IMG/VR virus record: IMGVR_UViG_2724679538_000004
Span: 32,001-96,000 of that record
Reading direction: 5' to 3' (one strand)
Length of the DNA stretch: 64,000 bases
Origin: a virus
Lineage: Duplodnaviria > Heunggongvirae > Uroviricota > Caudoviricetes
This document shows positions 417 to 53,115 of this stretch, in pieces. A model generated the notes under the pieces. That model did no database searches, was not told the origin of the DNA, and worked only from the letters and a program-made list of their open reading frames with translations. Positions within the stretch are counted from its first letter, which is position 1. Each line of letters begins with the position of its first letter. The position numbers were made by a program, and so were the translations under genes.

Positions 417-689
417 AAAGAATTATGGCGCTTGTTGAGGAAGTCACTCCTCTTACGCACTTTGTTTTGCCATGCCGGCAGTTAGCTTCTGCCTTTGACT
501 ATTCATGCGGCAACCCCGCATTTCGCCACAATGGGCAATTCACTTTAATGGAATAAACTGGCCGTTGTGTCGATTTAATTAGCATGGCCTTACCATGCTA
601 ATTTATTCAACTTGTACAATCCTACAAATCTATCCACTCAGGCTTACACCGTCTTCGTTATTGTAGAAATGAGGATCATCAGCGTTGAA

Positions 690-905
690 TCAGCTTAGAG
701 CAACGACATTTGCTGCTGCTGGGCCTTTAGCCCCATTCTCGATAGAGAATTCGACCTGCTGGCCTTCTTCCAAAGTGCGGAAATTATTACTCTGAATTGC
801 CGAAAAATGTACAAAAACATCTTTACTGCCATCAGCAGGAGAAATAAAGCCAAAGCCTTTATCAGAGTTAAACCATTTTACTAAACCAGTCATTTTATTA
901 GACAT
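690..905 (-). CDS. cold-shock protein, CspA family
   Basis: Product [23 protein letters not shown]...VFVHFSAIQ carries the RNP1/RNP2 motifs of the cold-shock domain; ATG at 905 preceded by AAGAAGG; the longer track ORF (to 1001) lacks an RBS. Confidence 0.85.
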
Positions 906-1209
906 AGATATTACCTTCTTAATTTTGTGAGCCACATAGTGCGGCGAGAATTTGATCTGTATAGATTGGGACTTACTTAGGCACTTAAGGAGGAGACTCA
1001 CGAAGAAGGGAAATCAGAAGATAACACTGAACTGAGACTGCTTTACTAAAACTGCTTACATAAGGTCTGTCTTGCAAACCAACGATGCTATTAACGCATA
1101 CCCTTTCTTTTCATGCAACCTTTATTTTTCAAAGATAACTAATTTTTGTCACCGTTGGTTTAGTAAACGTTAACGAACCAGACGATGACAGACACCTTTA
1201 CAGAGAACA

Positions 1210-39329: not shown

Positions 39330-39795
39330 TAGTACGATAAAGAGGCCCCATGCTCTTGATGGGGCCTGTAGCAACAAGCGTTATGGACGTTGGTTTACGT
39401 ACTCAATGATCGCTTTGATAATCGCGAACATCGGCGGCACGATTTTGAAAAGTAAGTTAAGCATAACAGGCCTCACTTAGTTTTATCGCGCCTAGCTGCA
39501 AATACCTTTGAGCTTGCCTTTGCAGTTGCAATATCTGTAGTCGCCAGATACTTACGGCACGATTTCGAGTTAAGGTAAGGTTTGAGAGTCACCAAAAACC
39601 TGGACTTAAATCTTCTTTGAGAACAATGATGTTTAGTAAATGGTCATTGTTACTAGGTATGACCACTCTACGTTTCTTGATGAATCCAGTACATTCGGTT
39701 AATCTTAACTCAGTCGCCAGATACTTATGGCTCAGGAACAGAGACGCAAACTCCGTTTCCTTTTAAAAAGCCCGGTCTAGTCAACTGGGCTTTTT
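39330..39795 (+). ncRNA. candidate non-coding RNA locus ending at a rho-independent terminator (hairpin 39769-39791 plus T-run)
   Basis: No ORF of 60 aa or more in any frame; direct repeats AGTCGCCAGATACTTA(C/T)GG at about 39537 and 39712; hairpins at 39341-39367 and 39495-39526. Confidence 0.3.
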
Positions 39796-40090
39796 AATGT
39801 CTGCTTTTTAACCAAACATACCCTCAATACTGCAACATCAGTGTCTTGCGAATCAAGATAGTGTGTATAGATTTTTCATGCAAGTGCATAAGTCTGTGGA
39901 TAACTCAGGAAGGAAAAAGTGACTTCCGCGCACTTTAGGCCGGACAAGGCCTTCGAAAAAGTCAATGGGAAGAAAAAATTTGTTAAAAATAACGTTTGTT
40001 TGAATTGTATATTTTATACCTGTCAATAGTTAGCATCTTATTAACATCTTTTTTAAGAGACAGAGTTTAAAAACATGTCGCTCCAACATA

Positions 40091-40110
40091 TACTGTATGT
40101 ACATACAGTA
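40091..40110 (+). promoter_or_regulatory. LexA operator (SOS box) TACTGTATGTACATACAGTA
   Basis: Perfect CTGT-N8-ACAG palindrome 17 bp upstream of the humD-like start. Confidence 0.85.
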
Positions 40111-40126
40111 TTAAGAGGCGAGTATT

Positions 40127-40516
40127 ATGGGATTCCCATCTCCTGCAGCGGATTATGTTGAAAGCCGTATTTCTCTTGATCGGCAGATAATTAGACATCC
40201 TTCAGCGACCTACTTCCTGCGAGCGGCTGATAGCCATCACCGCGAAGGAATATTGCAGGGGGCGCTGCTGGTGGTCGATTCTTCACTAACTCCGGTTGAT
40301 GGTTCACTGCTTGTATGTGCTATTGATGGGGAATTTCGTGTAAAAAAATACCGTAAGTATCCGCGTCAGTACCTGGAGGATTTAAGAACTGGCAAGAAGG
40401 AAGCATTGCCAAAGGATGACGATGGATGCACTGGCAGTACTGCCGTGTTTGGTGTCATCACTCACATTATCAACGACGCAAGAAGTGGCGAATTTGATGA
40501 TTGTCCTGTGATGTAG
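40127..40516 (+). CDS. humD: UmuD'-like protein (P1 HumD-like; begins at the position equivalent to the UmuD cleavage site)
   Basis: N-terminus MGFPSPAADYVE matches UmuD residues immediately after the Cys24-Gly25 cleavage site; conserved VDGEF(R/T)VKK; preceded by a LexA box; no umuC neighbour. Confidence 0.8.
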   Translation: MGFPSPAADYVESRISLDRQIIRHPSATYFLRAADSHHREGILQGALLVVDSSLTPVDGSLLVCAIDGEFRVKKYRKYPRQYLEDLRTGKKEALPKDDDGCTGSTAVFGVITHIINDARSGEFDDCPVM

Positions 40517-40560
40517 ATAGAAAGCCCTCGTTTGTATGAGGGCTTCTAGGTAAACACAAA

Positions 40561-41304
40561 TCACTGCATGTTGCCGAATTTTTTGTTAAGGCTTTTTCGT
40601 ATTGTCTCTATGGTTTTCTCCCTATCTGAATATAGTTCGCTAACTACATAGTCCATAATCTCAAAAGCACCTTCGATATCTTTGATCCGAACTTCATCAA
40701 ACGTATGACTGCCTGCATTCCCCAAGAACTTTATCGCCAAAAGATTTTGAGCAAGTTTGCTGCCCTCTTCCGGGATTTTTTCGATACGATGGTGCAATCG
40801 GATTGTCTTACCTTTATCATTTTGCGTAGGTATCCCCATAGAGGTAAGGATATTTTCTACAGCGATTCTGATTAGGTTTGCTGCGGCACCTTGCTGCATT
40901 AAAAAAATGGAAAAAGCAGCTTTCAGGGGGCCACTTACTTCATCCGGGCAGTTCTCTGGAATTTGAAAAACATTCAAGGAAGGAACAAAGCAAAGAGGTT
41001 TGTACCATTGATAATATTCGTCTGCCATTTCCTCTGGTTGGTAATCTCTATCCCATCCTGCCTTTCCTACGCAGGCAACCGCTTCGCCACATTTTGCTCG
41101 TGAACATTTGGCCATACAGCTGAAATAGGACTCAGACATATCGTAATCAAACCAATCTTCATTTTGTGCTTTCCTGGTACCTAAAGACTCCTCTTCAACA
41201 AAACTATCTTGCATGATTTCCAGAGTCTTTTGTCCGCAGACCGGACAAGGCCAGTCCACATGTTTATCGCTGTAAAATCGATGGGAAATTTTATGAATAG
41301 CCAT
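40561..41304 (-). CDS. zinc-ribbon protein with C-terminal HEPN/DUF4145-like segment (tentative)
   Basis: N-terminal CPVCG ... CMAKCSRAKCGEAVAC zinc-ribbon pattern; C-terminal LLAIKFLGNAGSHTFDEV resembles the R/K-x-x-G-N-x-x-x-H helix pair of DUF4145-type HEPN domains; only reverse-strand gene in its neighbourhood. Confidence 0.5.
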   Translation of the reverse strand: MAIHKISHRFYSDKHVDWPCPVCGQKTLEIMQDSFVEEESLGTRKAQNEDWFDYDMSESYFSCMAKCSRAKCGEAVACVGKAGWDRDYQPEEMADEYYQWYKPLCFVPSLNVFQIPENCPDEVSGPLKAAFSIFLMQQGAAANLIRIAVENILTSMGIPTQNDKGKTIRLHHRIEKIPEEGSKLAQNLLAIKFLGNAGSHTFDEVRIKDIEGAFEIMDYVVSELYSDREKTIETIRKSLNKKFGNMQ

Positions 41305-42889: not shown

Positions 42890-43766
42890 TTGTTTATACC
42901 AATAAGAAAACAACTAAATAACAGATCAACGAAATGTCAATGCTTTCGCCCGATTTGGTCTATAAAATTGACGTTTTCACACATCACTTCTTATACCCGC
43001 AATCCTACGCAGCAGACAGCGCCACAGCGTCCAATTTTCACCACAGATGACCCAACAACTACCAATAAAAACACACGCTCAAAATCGCTCCCGTTGCGTT
43101 ACACAACCATATAAACAACTTGTTTTCAGGCATAACAAAACAACTAAATAACACATATGCCATTCCCCAAAACAACCAACCTCTTTATGGCAGGCTACCG
43201 AAAAGACCCACCTCTTCTTCCCAGGCTACCGGACAACCAACCTAACTTTCACAGGCAATTCGAAACCTCCATACGCGCGATACCCACGACACGCCATTCC
43301 CCAAATAGCGAAGAACCACCGAAACCCCAACGAAGCTTGTAACCGCAAGGATTTCCTCAATCCCAAAAGACACGAAACAGAACATTCGAGGGAAACGCCA
43401 TTACCCAATACACGAATAACTACAAAAGCCTTTCACGCACTCCATACAAGCAACTCAAACACAATAACGAAAGGAATCGCCCACCTGCCATTACTCCATA
43501 CACGGAGAAGAACAATCACCAAAACGTCGAGAACAACCCAGAGAAGAACCACCGCAAAACGAACGAAACCATATAAACCGACAGAGAGAACTACACACCC
43601 AATTCACCAACAGAAATAGTCGCCGTATAGAACGTTCAGGGAGGAGTGAGTATTAACGCCTATAGAGAGCTTGAGACAGATAAAACACGAAGAAAACACA
43701 ACATGTATAACGGAGAAGCCAGGTATGTATAAGTGGGGAGTGGAGGAGGGGTGTCGCCTCCTTTTT
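42890..43766 (+). ncRNA. A+C-rich, G/T-poor tract with ~100-bp-spaced GCCATT(A/C)CCCAA-type repeats; candidate long non-coding RNA(s) ending at hairpin GGAGG-loop-CCTCC plus T5 (43742-43766)
   Basis: Strong strand-asymmetric composition; promoter-like AAAACAACTAAATAACA at about 42913 and 43138; only low-complexity ORFs without RBS. Confidence 0.3.
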
Positions 43767-43830
43767 CGTATTTATTCAACTCCTGATTTTATCCCCCCGT
43801 AAAACCCCTACGGTCAGCCTTCGGTCCATA

Positions 43831-43970
43831 CAGGGAAAAGGTTGCATCCCGCTACAGAAACGGCTGGGTTGCCTTCGGGGAACGGCTGGAGGTTTTCAGG
43901 GAAACGGTCGAGTTGCCTGTGTGGGTTTCGGGAAAAGGCTCGATGCCGGTTCAGGAACGGTGGCGTACCG
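43831..43970 (+). repeat. array of about six ~21-bp direct repeats with core (C)AGGGAAA(A/C)GG / GGGAACGGCT (GGA-rich)
   Basis: cagggaaaaggttgcatccc, cagaaacggctgggttgcc, ggggaacggctggagg, cagggaaacggtcgagttgcc, cgggaaaaggctcgatgcc, caggaacggtggcgtaccgg. Confidence 0.6.
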
Positions 43971-44295
43971 GTATAGCGAGAGGGAGAGTTGCGGCTACCC
44001 ACCTGTAATGTGCGGGAAGAAGGGAGACTCTCACGTATAGGCGAACCTACTTCCCGCTGGATTCCCTCTGAATGCCCAGCTACAGCGTAATTGTGCCAGA
44101 CAGTCCGCGGGTCACAATCGATTTCAGTAGGTTTTCGGGGAGAGGATTATTCTGCCCACCAGCTCCCTGCGGCCAGTAAATCAGAATAATGTAAAAAGTG
44201 CCCACGGTACTGAACCTGAAAAGTCACTACTAAAACTGCATTTACCGGAATAAAACTCTTTTTCACCTATGTGTTATTGCGATAATAACACCAAC

Positions 44296-51262: not shown

Positions 51263-51559
51263 TTACGGTAGCCTGCTAAGGATTTCGTCCAGATCTTCCT
51301 TAGTCAAATTTGAGTTTTCATAAATCTGCATAATCCTTTCGCGAGCTTTAGCAGAAGCTTTTGCAGTTGCGCCCAAAGAAGAAGCAATTTTGTCAAACTC
51401 GGCCATCGGCATCTTTTCAAGTACAACATTGATGATTTCAGACTTTGACAGTTTTAGGTTTTTGTCTTTCAGTTTGGCTTTAAATTTTGTTAGTTTGTTG
51501 TTCGCCTGTTCAGTTAATGCGACCTGACAATACGTTGTTTTTTTCTCGCTCATAGTCAA
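51263..51559 (-). CDS. hypothetical protein
   Basis: 98-aa ORF immediately downstream of the helicase gene on the same strand. Confidence 0.45.
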   Translation of the reverse strand: MTMSEKKTTYCQVALTEQANNKLTKFKAKLKDKNLKLSKSEIINVVLEKMPMAEFDKIASSLGATAKASAKARERIMQIYENSNLTKEDLDEILSRLP

Positions 51560-53115
51560 TCTCGTTTCAAAATCCCAAAATCAAAAGTACCACCTACTGG
51601 CAAAACGCCTTCCGCAAAACCTGGTGTTGTATCGATAATATGCTTCCGTTCGTAAGAATGAGACAGTAAGTATTTATTACTAACGTCAATAAAATCACTG
51701 ATAAAGCACACATTGGCTTGATTTTTCTTGGCTCGAAGGCCGCGACCAACACGTTGCCTCATCTCAACTTCGGCCTTTCCACCACCAGCCAGAATCACTG
51801 CCCCAACACTCGGTACATCAACACCAACATCCAGAATAGTCGACCCTATTAAAACATCTATTTCGCCGGACGCTAAACTATTCAATTTTGCTTGCCTTGT
51901 CGATTGGTTGGACTCGCCATAAATGAAGTCAACTTTCAGACCGGACTCCTTCATCATTTCCATTAAGATCTGCCCGTGGCGCTTAAGGCGAACTAGAGTC
52001 ATACAGTTCAGAGAATGCTTTTTATACATTAACGCTTCTCGAACTATGGCCTCGTTACGACTTAGATTATATACGATCCCCAACTGATAAGCCTTTTGGT
52101 AGGCGGTACTCATGCCAACCCTAAAATTTAGATGCTTATTAGCGAGTTCAGCCTTGATTCGTGCCTCGTCTGGAATGTAGGCAATTTTATGATAGAGGAA
52201 GTATGGTTTGGCCAAAATACCTTTATCAATTAGATATTTTTCTGTGACCTTGATTTCTATGCGACCAGCCACGGCCATCAGGCGCATGTTGGCTTCGGTA
52301 GAGTCCTTCATGAAAGGGGTTGCAGTCAGCGCAAGACGATAATCTGCGTTCACACAAAGACGGGCGATATCATAGAAGTTGGAGCCGGAAGACTCATGGG
52401 CTTCTTCAAGAATGAGAAGAGAAACGCTAGAAAGAAAGCGCTTTACCAAATCTCGGCGTTTTAGATGGTAGTTTTTCTTATCTGCCGATGCGTCTCGTGG
52501 CGGCTCTTCAAGGAAGCTTGCCAATGTCTGTACCGTGGCGACGTTGATATGACGTGAAACCTGAAACTCACCAGATCCAATTACTCCAACTTTCTGACCT
52601 TTTAGCCATGATTCGCCATTTTCTGCACGGTAATCGATAGATTTCTGAAAGTTTTCTGCCATTTGATACATCAGAACAGAACGAGTGGTTAAAAATAGCG
52701 TCATGCGGCCAATTCTTGCAGCTGCTTTACATGCAACGTTAGATTTCCCGCCACCAGTTGCGATCTGCGCAATCATCATCCCTTCTCGTACTAGAGTTTC
52801 TACCGTCTGATCCTGATATGCATAATCTGGGTTATATGGGAAAGGGTTAACAACTGGGTTTGGTTTCCCAAGTGCAGGGGCTTTGTCCTTTCGAATATGT
52901 AAGCATTTGATGCCTGCTTTATTCAGATTCGAGGCTACAGGCTTCGCGAATCCAGCGGGGAACGAGTTTTTGCTCCAGTTGAACATGGTGCTTGTGCCTT
53001 TCCAATCACCAGCTTCAACTTCATAGCTCAGCATCTCTTGCACGAGTCGTTTTACATTGTCATCAGCGCCAGAAATCAGTGCGTTTACAGCATTAGATAC
53101 AATCCGAACTGTCAT
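51556..53115 (-). CDS. superfamily 2 DNA helicase (DEAD/DEAH-box, type III restriction res-like)
   Basis: Walker A TGGGKS (motif I), motif II LLILEEAHE, C-terminal helicase domain. Confidence 0.75.
   Translation of the reverse strand: MTVRIVSNAVNALISGADDNVKRLVQEMLSYEVEAGDWKGTSTMFNWSKNSFPAGFAKPVASNLNKAGIKCLHIRKDKAPALGKPNPVVNPFPYNPDYAYQDQTVETLVREGMMIAQIATGGGKSNVACKAAARIGRMTLFLTTRSVLMYQMAENFQKSIDYRAENGESWLKGQKVGVIGSGEFQVSRHINVATVQTLASFLEEPPRDASADKKNYHLKRRDLVKRFLSSVSLLILEEAHESSGSNFYDIARLCVNADYRLALTATPFMKDSTEANMRLMAVAGRIEIKVTEKYLIDKGILAKPYFLYHKIAYIPDEARIKAELANKHLNFRVGMSTAYQKAYQLGIVYNLSRNEAIVREALMYKKHSLNCMTLVRLKRHGQILMEMMKESGLKVDFIYGESNQSTRQAKLNSLASGEIDVLIGSTILDVGVDVPSVGAVILAGGGKAEVEMRQRVGRGLRAKKNQANVCFISDFIDVSNKYLLSHSYERKHIIDTTPGFAEGVLPVGGTFDFGILKRD

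What the first reader, a model, noticed from the sequence alone, without database searches (positions are those of the whole stretch)
40091..40516. SOS-controlled, pre-cleaved UmuD' homologue without umuC
The protein begins MGFPSPAADYVE, the UmuD sequence immediately after the RecA-mediated cleavage site, so it is made directly in the activated UmuD' form, as known for P1 HumD. A perfect LexA box (TACTGTATGTACATACAGTA) lies 17 bp upstream and no umuC homologue is adjacent. The Ser-Lys dyad region is altered (ADSH in place of GDSM) and there is an insertion relative to UmuD before the C-terminal strand, so it may have diverged from the P1-type function.
Basis: partly seen in the sequence, partly recalled or inferred. 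Interest (0 to 1): 0.45.

Follow-up and report, generated by a model that had tools for sequence, protein, structure and literature searches.

The report
Ordinary phage humD gene, LexA-controlled
This is a normal copy of humD, the already-characterised phage P1 gene for a ready-made UmuD' subunit that is switched on by DNA damage and borrows the host's UmuC polymerase; it sits here in an SSU5-like phage-plasmid of Escherichia and is not a diverged variant.

Summary
A 129-codon ORF (40127..40516, +) starts MGFPSPAADYVE. A perfect 20-bp LexA-box palindrome (40091..40110) ends 16 nt before its ATG. No umuC homologue occurs anywhere in the 64 kb.

The protein is 88% identical over its full length to P1 HumD. 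It scores 217 bits (cut-off 120) on NCBI's curated equivalog model 'HumD family translesion DNA polymerase'. The identical protein is already in NCBI, and 328 PLSDB plasmids and at least 459 IMG/VR contigs carry close copies.

The ADSH motif, the 4-residue insertion and an 11-residue C-terminal tail are all present in P1 HumD itself. dN/dS against P1-type copies is about 0.06.

All 80 close viral relatives keep a LexA box 16-19 nt upstream and none has umuC nearby.

The most likely mechanism is that LexA represses the gene. After DNA damage it yields a UmuD'-like dimer without RecA-mediated cleavage, and this dimer pairs with host UmuC.

Verdict: already known, low interest.

One side observation may be worth a look. 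Across the wider family the Ser-Lys dyad decays, while an acidic C-terminal tip (EFDDCPVM) that loosely resembles the SSB tail is conserved and confined to these orphan, pre-cleaved proteins.

The parts
40066..40094 (+). sigma-70 promoter-like site: TTTAAA, 17-nt spacer, TATACT. The -10 hexamer overlaps the left end of the LexA box.
   Evidence: Consensus scan, 9 of 12 matches. This is no more than the chance number for the region, so the site is inferred from its position relative to the box and from its conservation in relatives.
40091..40110 (.). LexA box TACTGTATGTACATACAGTA, a perfect palindrome
   Evidence: It matches the recA operator at 18 of 20 positions. A box lies 16-19 nt before the ATG in 80 of 80 IMG/VR relatives, with 13 spacer variants. 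P1 has an annotated LexA site at the homologous place.
40113..40118 (+). Shine-Dalgarno-like AAGAGG, 8 nt before the ATG
   Evidence: Read directly from the sequence. Invariant in the SSU5-like relatives.
40127..40516 (+). humD coding sequence, 129 aa: a UmuD'-like protein made without the N-terminal pro-arm
   Evidence: Pfam Peptidase_S24, 3e-10. PDB UmuD', 4e-24. NCBIfam NF051876 HumD equivalog, 217 bits against a cut-off of 120. 88% identical to P1 HumD. dN/dS about 0.06.
40481..40513 (+). Codons for the C-terminal tail DARSGEFDDCPVM-COOH (from residue 119), absent from UmuD/UmuD'
   Evidence: Alignments. An acidic-Pro-hydrophobic C-terminus occurs in 50 of 68 family members and in 0 of 407 other ORFs of the same loci. 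It occurs in 0 of 70 full-length UmuD-like representatives.
40523..40544 (.). G+C-rich hairpin between the convergent humD and DUF4145 genes; a likely two-way terminator, with weak U-tracts
   Evidence: RNA fold: -18.2 kcal/mol (z = -3.75) on the + strand and -16.9 kcal/mol (z = -3.24) on the - strand. Not called by the terminator scan.

Best explanation
The gene is a humD orthologue carried by an SSU5/pSLy3-like phage-plasmid of Escherichia. In undamaged cells host LexA binds the palindrome, which overlaps the -10 region and the transcription start, and keeps the gene off. When DNA damage activates RecA and LexA cleaves itself, the gene is transcribed. Its product already has the length and N-terminus of UmuD', so it needs no slow RecA-mediated self-cleavage. 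It dimerises and joins the host's own UmuC to form a Pol V-like translesion polymerase. This gives the element, and the host, earlier or stronger lesion bypass and SOS mutagenesis.

Shown here: homology, architecture, operator conservation, absence of umuC and purifying selection.

Inferred from the P1 work (McLenigan et al. 1999, J Bacteriol 181:7005; recalled from memory and cited in PMC4713147 and PMC9603915): dimer formation, UmuC and RecA binding, complementation of UmuD' and LexA control.
For: - The protein is 87.6-88.4% identical over its full length to P1 HumD. The P1 record annotates that protein as functionally complementing UmuD' and annotates a LexA site 19 nt upstream.
- It scores 217 bits on the NCBIfam HumD equivalog (cut-off 120), covering positions 1-129 of 129. 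It falls below the UmuD model (89 against 110).
- UniRef names the identical protein 'HumD family translesion DNA polymerase'.
- It aligns to residues 1-114 of UmuD' (1umu) at E = 4e-24.
- The LexA box matches the consensus at 18 of 20 positions and differs from the recA operator only at the centre.
- All 80 close relatives keep a box 16-19 nt upstream. The CTGT/ACAG arms are fixed while the spacer varies.
- There is no umuC in the window, none within 4 kb in 80 relatives, and umuC is adjacent in only 2 of 79 species-level relatives.
- HumD-bearing Escherichia phages are essentially absent from the phage records that hold a UmuC homologue.
- dN/dS is 0.056-0.084.
- Homology with differently arranged phage-plasmids starts at 40089 and stops at 40516, so the box plus the ORF travel as one module.
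Against: - Nothing here tests function. LexA binding, expression and partnership with UmuC are all carried over from P1.
- By my recollection of the P1 paper, HumD was poorly expressed and complemented well only from a high-copy plasmid. Its natural role may therefore not be mutagenesis as such.
- Across the wider family the catalytic dyad is not conserved, while an extra C-terminal tail is. This hints at a function not fully described by 'UmuD' surrogate'.
- The promoter call is no better than chance.
Confidence: 0.8

Rival explanations
1. HumD acts mainly as a modulator of the SOS response rather than as a polymerase subunit. It might bind RecA filaments, or form mixed dimers with host UmuD/UmuD'. 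That could cancel the UmuD-dependent checkpoint or recombination effects, or alter UmuD' turnover, to the element's benefit.
For: - The gene is always an orphan.
- The N-terminal arm and core are conserved while the catalytic Ser/Lys are often lost in the family.
- By recollection, P1 HumD binds RecA filaments and is weakly expressed (McLenigan 1999).
Against: P1 HumD restored mutagenesis and UV survival in umuD-defective backgrounds (title and citations in PMC4713147 and PMC8460599). That result requires productive pairing with UmuC. Nothing in the sequence separates this rival from the best explanation, and the two are not exclusive.
Confidence: 0.12
2. The conserved acidic C-terminal tip (GEFDDCPVM-COOH) is a docking motif of the SSB C-terminal type. 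It would tether HumD, or HumD2-UmuC, to proteins that normally read the SSB tail, or compete with SSB for them. That would give orphan HumD proteins a partner that UmuD' lacks.
For: - The tail occurs in 50 of 68 family members, including ones only about 30% identical, and in none of 407 other ORFs in the same loci.
- It is absent from all 70 full-length UmuD-like representatives.
- It is absent from phage UmuDs that sit next to umuC; their matches end at about residue 118.
- E. coli SSB ends MDFDDDIPF. DDDIPF is the known interaction motif (PMC5872125).
- Some members end in ..EFDDTPF..DWPF or ..NAPF.
Against: - The resemblance covers about 8 residues and could be convergent or meaningless.
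- Most members end P-V-M rather than P-F, which shifts the Pro by one position.
- There are no binding data and no structural test.
- The AlphaFold model was of too low confidence to say anything about the tail (pLDDT 54.7).
- The tail could equally contact UmuC, RecA or the HumD core.
Confidence: 0.1
3. It is an active S24 peptidase or a LexA/CI-like regulator, as some database names say ('LexA family transcriptional regulator', 'S24 family peptidase').
For: It hits the Pfam S24 family, and several NCBI records use these names. Ser36 and Lys73 are intact in this copy.
Against: - At 129 aa there is no DNA-binding domain, and the LexA model scores 32 bits against a cut-off of 111.
- There is no cleavage-site arm to process.
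- The dyad is replaced or deleted in most family members: the Ser column is T in 25, S in 12, deleted in 17 and other in 16; the Lys column is K in 29, R in 16 and other in 25 (70 aligned rows, including the window and E. coli UmuD). N15 gp26 has Thr in place of the Ser.
- Peptidase activity is therefore not what selection maintains.
Confidence: 0.03

Closest known systems
Bacteriophage P1 HumD (AAQ14073; McLenigan et al. 1999)
   Same: Both are 129 aa, and the two are 88% identical. They share the M-GFPSPAADYVESRISLD start, the ADSHHREG motif, the insertion and the SGEFDDCPV tail. Both have a LexA box just upstream and no umuC.
   Different: The host element differs: SSU5/pSLy3-like rather than P1-like. 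The flanks also differ. P1 has lxr upstream (divergent) and phd-doc downstream. Here there is a conserved 400-bp non-coding block upstream and a convergent DUF4145 gene downstream. The box-to-ATG spacing is 16 nt rather than 19, and the spacer bases of the box differ.
E. coli UmuD / UmuD' (Pol V accessory subunit; PDB 1umu, 1i4v)
   Same: It belongs to the S24 family by sequence. It aligns from UmuD Gly25 to the end of the core at 44-46% identity. Ser60 and Lys97 equivalents are present, and the gene has a LexA-box-controlled promoter.
   Different: The 24-residue pro-arm is missing, so no RecA-mediated cleavage step is needed. There is no umuC in an operon with it. It has a one-residue deletion before the Ser, a 4-residue insertion and an 11-residue acidic C-terminal tail. 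It scores below the NCBIfam UmuD cut-off (89 against 110).
N15 gp26, phiKO2 and HK639 'UmuD-like' proteins, and prophage HumD-family genes of Citrobacter, Enterobacter and Klebsiella
   Same: They share the pre-cleaved start, the tail, orphan status and usually a LexA box.
   Different: They are 60-70% identical. Many have Thr or another residue in place of the catalytic Ser.
Plasmid, ICE and phage UmuD homologues with a partner polymerase (MucA/MucB, RumA/RumB; phage PHB10, Oslo, ENT39118 umuDC)
   Same: They are S24 UmuD-type proteins on mobile elements, associated with the SOS response.
   Different: By general knowledge for MucA/RumA, they are full-length, need cleavage and are encoded next to a umuC-type gene. 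In the phage examples the similarity stops at about residue 118, with no tail, and umuC is adjacent.

Membership tests
HumD family (NCBIfam NF051876, equivalog) | Full-length match to the curated family model above its trusted cut-off | tested here: met
   217 bits against a cut-off of 120, E = 6e-65, protein 1-129 on profile 1-129 of 129.
HumD family (NCBIfam NF051876, equivalog) | Protein starts at the position that follows the UmuD Cys24-Gly25 cleavage site (made as UmuD') | tested here: met
   Met1-Gly2 aligns with UmuD Cys24-Gly25, and GFPSPAADYVE is identical to UmuD 25-35.
HumD family (NCBIfam NF051876, equivalog) | No cognate umuC-type polymerase gene alongside | tested here: met
   tblastn with UmuC gives a best E of 3.2 in the 64 kb. 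0 of 80 close relatives have one within 4 kb.
HumD family (NCBIfam NF051876, equivalog) | LexA operator at the promoter | tested here: met
   The sequence criterion is met: 18 of 20 to the consensus, conserved in 80 of 80 relatives, and homologous to the annotated P1 site. Actual LexA binding was not testable.
HumD family (NCBIfam NF051876, equivalog) | Substitutes for UmuD' in SOS mutagenesis; binds UmuC and RecA filaments | not testable with these tools
   Known only for P1 HumD (McLenigan 1999, cited in PMC4713147). Carried over here on the strength of 88% identity.
UmuD proper (Pol V autoproteolytic subunit, NCBIfam NF007621) | N-terminal arm with the Cys-Gly (or Ala-Gly) self-cleavage site; score above the family cut-off; operon with umuC | tested here: not met
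   There is no arm. The score is 89.4 bits against a cut-off of 110. There is no umuC.
LexA / phage CI-type S24 repressors | N-terminal DNA-binding domain joined to the S24 domain | tested here: not met
   The 129-aa protein consists of the S24 core only. TIGR00498 scores 32 bits against a cut-off of 111, matching only the C-terminal domain of the model.
Peptidase S24 (Pfam PF00717) | Domain match above the gathering score; Ser-Lys dyad | tested here: met
   40.1 bits against 23.3. Ser36 and Lys73 are present. The dyad is not conserved across the HumD family, so catalytic activity is doubtful and untested.

The most novel reading that the evidence does not exclude
Orphan, pre-cleaved HumD proteins are more than a short-cut to UmuD'. 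As a family they have let the Ser-Lys dyad decay. They have fixed a new acidic C-terminal tip (E-F-D-D-C-P-V-M-COOH) that resembles the SSB C-terminal interaction motif (M-D-F-D-D-D-I-P-F-COOH). The tip would dock HumD, or HumD2-UmuC, onto SSB-tail-binding replication and repair proteins, or compete with SSB for them. This would be a mode of polymerase recruitment or interference not described for UmuD'.
Probability: 0.1. Interest if true: 0.55.

Novelty: already known. Interest (0 to 1): 0.1.

Why it matters
As it stands it matters little. The gene shows that the humD plus LexA-box module of phage P1 is also standard equipment of SSU5-like phage-plasmids, which are common in E. coli. It appears to be exchanged between phage-plasmid families as a unit.

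It is relevant to how mobile elements tap the host SOS mutagenesis machinery, but it adds no new principle.

The only forward-looking point is the family-wide pattern: a dispensable catalytic dyad and a conserved acidic C-terminal tip confined to orphan copies. If the tip proves to be a real interaction motif, it would refine the accepted view of what HumD proteins do.

Tried and rejected
Rejected by direct alignment, the equivalog score and dN/dS.
- **A divergent lxr-like gene sharing the LexA box, as in P1.** There is no conserved minus-strand ORF between 39326 and 40090. The only one is a 57-aa TTG ORF. A direct search with the P1 Lxr protein was not run. P1-like contigs do keep lxr.
- **Structure prediction.** A 26-sequence alignment gave mean pLDDT 54.7 and pTM 0.50. 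This is too poor, so no fold search was run and nothing is claimed from it.
- **Rfam.** No family matched the non-coding block upstream or the A+C-rich block downstream.
- **Motif scan of IMG/VR with GTCGCCAGATACTTA.** It recovered only copies of the same element plus single chance hits.
- **Key papers.** McLenigan 1999 (PMC94175) and the P1 genome paper (PMC523184) are not held in the library. What I say about them beyond title and citation context is from memory.
- **Replication gene near the iteron-like repeats.** The Pfam scan of neighbouring ORFs found none.

Full report
**What is there**

The ORF at 40127..40516 on the + strand encodes 129 residues beginning MGFPSPAADYVE. A 20-bp perfect palindrome, TACTGTATGTACATACAGTA, lies at 40091..40110, with dyad symmetry extending to 40090..40111. 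Sixteen nucleotides, not 17, separate it from the ATG, and they include an AAGAGG Shine-Dalgarno-like sequence 8 nt from the start.

The palindrome is the only CTGT-N8-ACAG in the 64 kb. It is also the only match to the 20-bp LexA consensus within 3 mismatches; it has 2, and no such site appeared in 100 shuffles. It differs from the E. coli K-12 recA operator TACTGTATGAGCATACAGTA only at the two central bases, and from the umuDC operator at three positions.

A promoter-like TTTAAA-17-TATACT (40066..40094) places its -10 hexamer across the left edge of the box. That scan is no better than chance on its own.

A G+C-rich hairpin (40523..40544, about -18 kcal/mol, z = -3.75) separates the gene from a convergent gene.

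**What the protein is**

- Pfam assigns Peptidase_S24 (3e-10).
- Against solved structures the best matches are UmuD' (1umu, E = 4e-24). The alignment runs from residue 2 to 118 of the query and 1 to 114 of UmuD'.
- Residue Gly2 aligns with UmuD Gly25, the first residue after the RecA-mediated cleavage site.
- tblastn against phage genomes gives 87.6-88.4% identity over all 129 residues to HumD of phage P1 and P7, 89% to RCS47, 87% to D6 and 67% to N15 gp26.
- The NCBIfam equivalog model NF051876, 'HumD family translesion DNA polymerase', scores 217 bits against a cut-off of 120 and is matched end to end. The UmuD model (89 against 110) and the LexA model (32 against 111) are not passed.
- The identical protein is already in NCBI ('MULTISPECIES: S24 family peptidase [Escherichia]') and UniRef names it as HumD family.
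- dN/dS against the P1, RCS47, Cyrano and L087 copies is 0.056-0.084. This is a functional gene under purifying selection.

A direct alignment of the window protein with P1 HumD, RCS47 HumD, the Cyrano protein, N15 gp26 and E. coli UmuD shows three things.

- RA-ADSHHREG (against KASGDSMIDGG in UmuD) is identical in P1, RCS47 and Cyrano.
- The 4-residue insertion near residue 100 is present in all HumD-type proteins.

The Ser (S36, equivalent to UmuD S60) and Lys (K73, equivalent to K97) are both present. These are therefore the features of P1 HumD itself, not departures from it.

**Operator and orphan status in relatives**

The P1 record annotates a LexA binding site 19 nt upstream of humD, and it aligns with the window's box.

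In 80 IMG/VR contigs carrying close relatives (88-95% identity; at least 459 such stretches exist), every one has a ..CTGT-N8-ACAG.. box 16, 18 or 19 nt before the ATG. There are 13 different spacer sequences but the arms are fixed. None has a UmuC homologue within 4 kb, and all proteins are 129 aa.

A scan of one genome per species gave 79 loci, 28-93% identical and almost all in Enterobacterales chromosomes, presumably prophages. Of these, 37 have a CTG-N10-CAG box within 100 nt upstream and only two have an adjacent umuC, one in a Chitinophagaceae MAG and one in a Pseudomonas.

The window itself has no UmuC-like sequence at all (best tblastn E = 3.2).

Phage records that do carry umuC (PHB10, Oslo, ENT39118, IME1369_01 and ST846-OXA48phi9.2) match the query only to about residue 118-124, so they lack the tail.

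**Where it sits**

The window is part of an SSU5/pSLy3-like phage-plasmid of Escherichia. It is 87-90% identical over long stretches to phages Cyrano, CMS-2020a and PhiR41_1 and to many ~109-kb non-mobilizable E. coli plasmids, and about 79% identical to Salmonella phage SSU5.

Copies of humD at 80% or more nucleotide identity occur in 328 PLSDB plasmids. The closest (99.3%) is pHNAH968, where the gene is annotated 'S24 family peptidase'.

Homology with differently organised relatives starts at 40089 or 40126 and ends exactly at 40516. The box plus ORF therefore behaves as a module set in variable surroundings.

- Downstream is a DUF4145 gene here, an apbC/MinD-like gene plus metG in Cyrano, and phd-doc in P1.
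- Upstream is a 400-bp non-coding block here and a 187-aa ORF in L019.

**Mechanism**

The best-supported account is the one established for P1 HumD. I recall McLenigan et al. 1999 (J Bacteriol 181:7005) as showing dimer formation, binding to UmuC and RecA filaments, and restoration of mutagenesis and UV survival when well expressed. The paper is not held here. It is cited with that title in PMC4713147, PMC8460599 and PMC11541004. PMC9603915 describes humD as a LexA-regulated SOS gene.

LexA represses the gene. DNA damage lifts repression. The product is UmuD'-like from the start and pairs with host UmuC. With 88% identity, an equivalog-level model match, a conserved operator and strong purifying selection, I put this at about 0.8. 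Nothing about function was or could be tested here.

**A family-level pattern**

In 70 aligned rows (68 full-length pre-cleaved proteins from different species, plus the window protein and E. coli UmuD), the catalytic dyad is not conserved.

- The catalytic Ser column is Thr in 25, Ser in 12, deleted in 17 and something else in 16.
- The Lys column is Lys in 29, Arg in 16 and something else in 25.

The dyad is therefore not what selection keeps, as expected for a protein that no longer cleaves itself.

By contrast, 50 of the 68 family members end in an acidic-Pro-hydrophobic tip with consensus E-F-D-D-C-P-V-M-COOH. This includes members only about 30% identical, which were found through the N-terminal search pattern and so were not selected for their C-terminus. 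None of the 407 other ORFs of 100 aa or more in the same loci ends that way.

In an unbiased HMMER search of 1.84 billion cluster representatives, none of the 70 full-length UmuD-like proteins among the top hits has the tip. It appears only in HumD-type sequences: pre-cleaved ones and a few fragments or mis-called starts.

E. coli SSB ends MDFDDDIPF, and DDDIPF is its partner-binding motif (PMC5872125). The likeness ([DE]-F-D-D, then Pro and a hydrophobic C-terminus) is suggestive but short. I offer it only as the most novel reading not excluded (probability about 0.1). The AlphaFold model was too weak to help (pLDDT 54.7).

**Verdict**

The 'diverged' suggestion is not supported. The feature is a routine, already catalogued humD gene, so interest is low.

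Noticed in passing
window 39395..39800: A ~400-bp stretch just upstream of humD has no credible ORF. The substitutions among relatives in the only 49-aa ORF are mostly non-synonymous. Yet the stretch is nearly invariant across SSU5-like relatives and more conserved than the flanking genes. It contains two direct repeats: AGTCGCCAGATACTTAYGGC, 173 bp apart, and CGGCACGATTTYGA, 120 bp apart. It ends in a strong two-way hairpin at 39763..39797. The minus strand folds better than chance (z = -4.4, against -2.0 for the plus strand). It occurs in 114 of 5426 complete E. coli genomes and is never annotated. Distant (67-76%) homologues lie in unannotated gaps of Citrobacter, Enterobacter and Klebsiella plasmids, twice about 0.8-1.6 kb upstream of a RepA/RepB initiator gene. 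No Rfam family matches. It could be an ncRNA or a protein-binding or replication-control region.
   Followed up: partly
window 42890..43770: About 750 nt has an extreme strand bias: A 38%, C 31%, G 13%, T 17%, with GC skew down to -0.45 and AT skew up to +0.51. There is no ORF of 120 aa or more. GCCATTNCYCA occurs four times, at 43159, 43293, 43397 and 43487. A conserved TTGACG-17-TTATAC lies at about 42969..42997 (read from the sequence; not called by the promoter scan). A terminator-like hairpin lies at 43740..43769. The block is conserved at 87-93% in E. coli relatives and at 67-73% in Salmonella SSU5 and Klebsiella phage-plasmids. No Rfam hit at E <= 1. It is a candidate long G-poor non-coding RNA, possibly a Rho or RNA-binding-protein target, or a DNA site array, and is core to the SSU5 group.
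   Followed up: partly
window 43800..44160: A G+C-rich stretch follows the A+C-rich block. It has GGGAAA(A/C)GG(C/T)-type repeats roughly every 18-33 bp; exact copies lie at 43833, 43899 and 43930, and looser ones lie between them. It also has many short hairpins with GAAA or TTCG loops. It is conserved in SSU5 and Klebsiella relatives. It looks like an iteron array or a structured RNA. No replication initiator gene was found among the neighbouring ORFs scanned.
   Followed up: partly
window 40561..41304 (-): The convergent neighbour of humD is a 247-aa protein with a Cys-rich N-terminus and DUF4145 (Pfam 4e-15). It matches PHROG 1305 and gives a weak hit to the PADLOC defence model PD-T7-4 (3.9e-5). 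This slot holds different cargo in relatives: an apbC/MinD-like gene in Cyrano and phd-doc in P1. It may be a defence or accessory hot spot.
   Followed up: partly
L041 2306..2542 (also L076, L082, L063 and other P1-like IMG/VR contigs): P1-like contigs carry a degraded second copy of the SSU5-type humD upstream region about 1.5 kb upstream of their own humD. It is 81% identical to window 39876..40128. An 11-bp deletion runs through the LexA box and the start of the ORF is broken. Reference P1 lacks it. This is a trace of past exchange of the humD module between P1-like and SSU5-like phage-plasmids.
   Followed up: partly
window 665..1083 (-): A full-length match to the cspA thermoregulator RNA (Rfam RF01766, 186 bits against a gathering score of 78). 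This implies a cold-shock-protein gene with its 5' UTR thermosensor on the phage-plasmid.
   Followed up: no
window 51556..53115 (-): A 519-aa protein with ResIII/DEAD helicase and Helicase_C domains. It was seen only while scanning neighbours.
   Followed up: no
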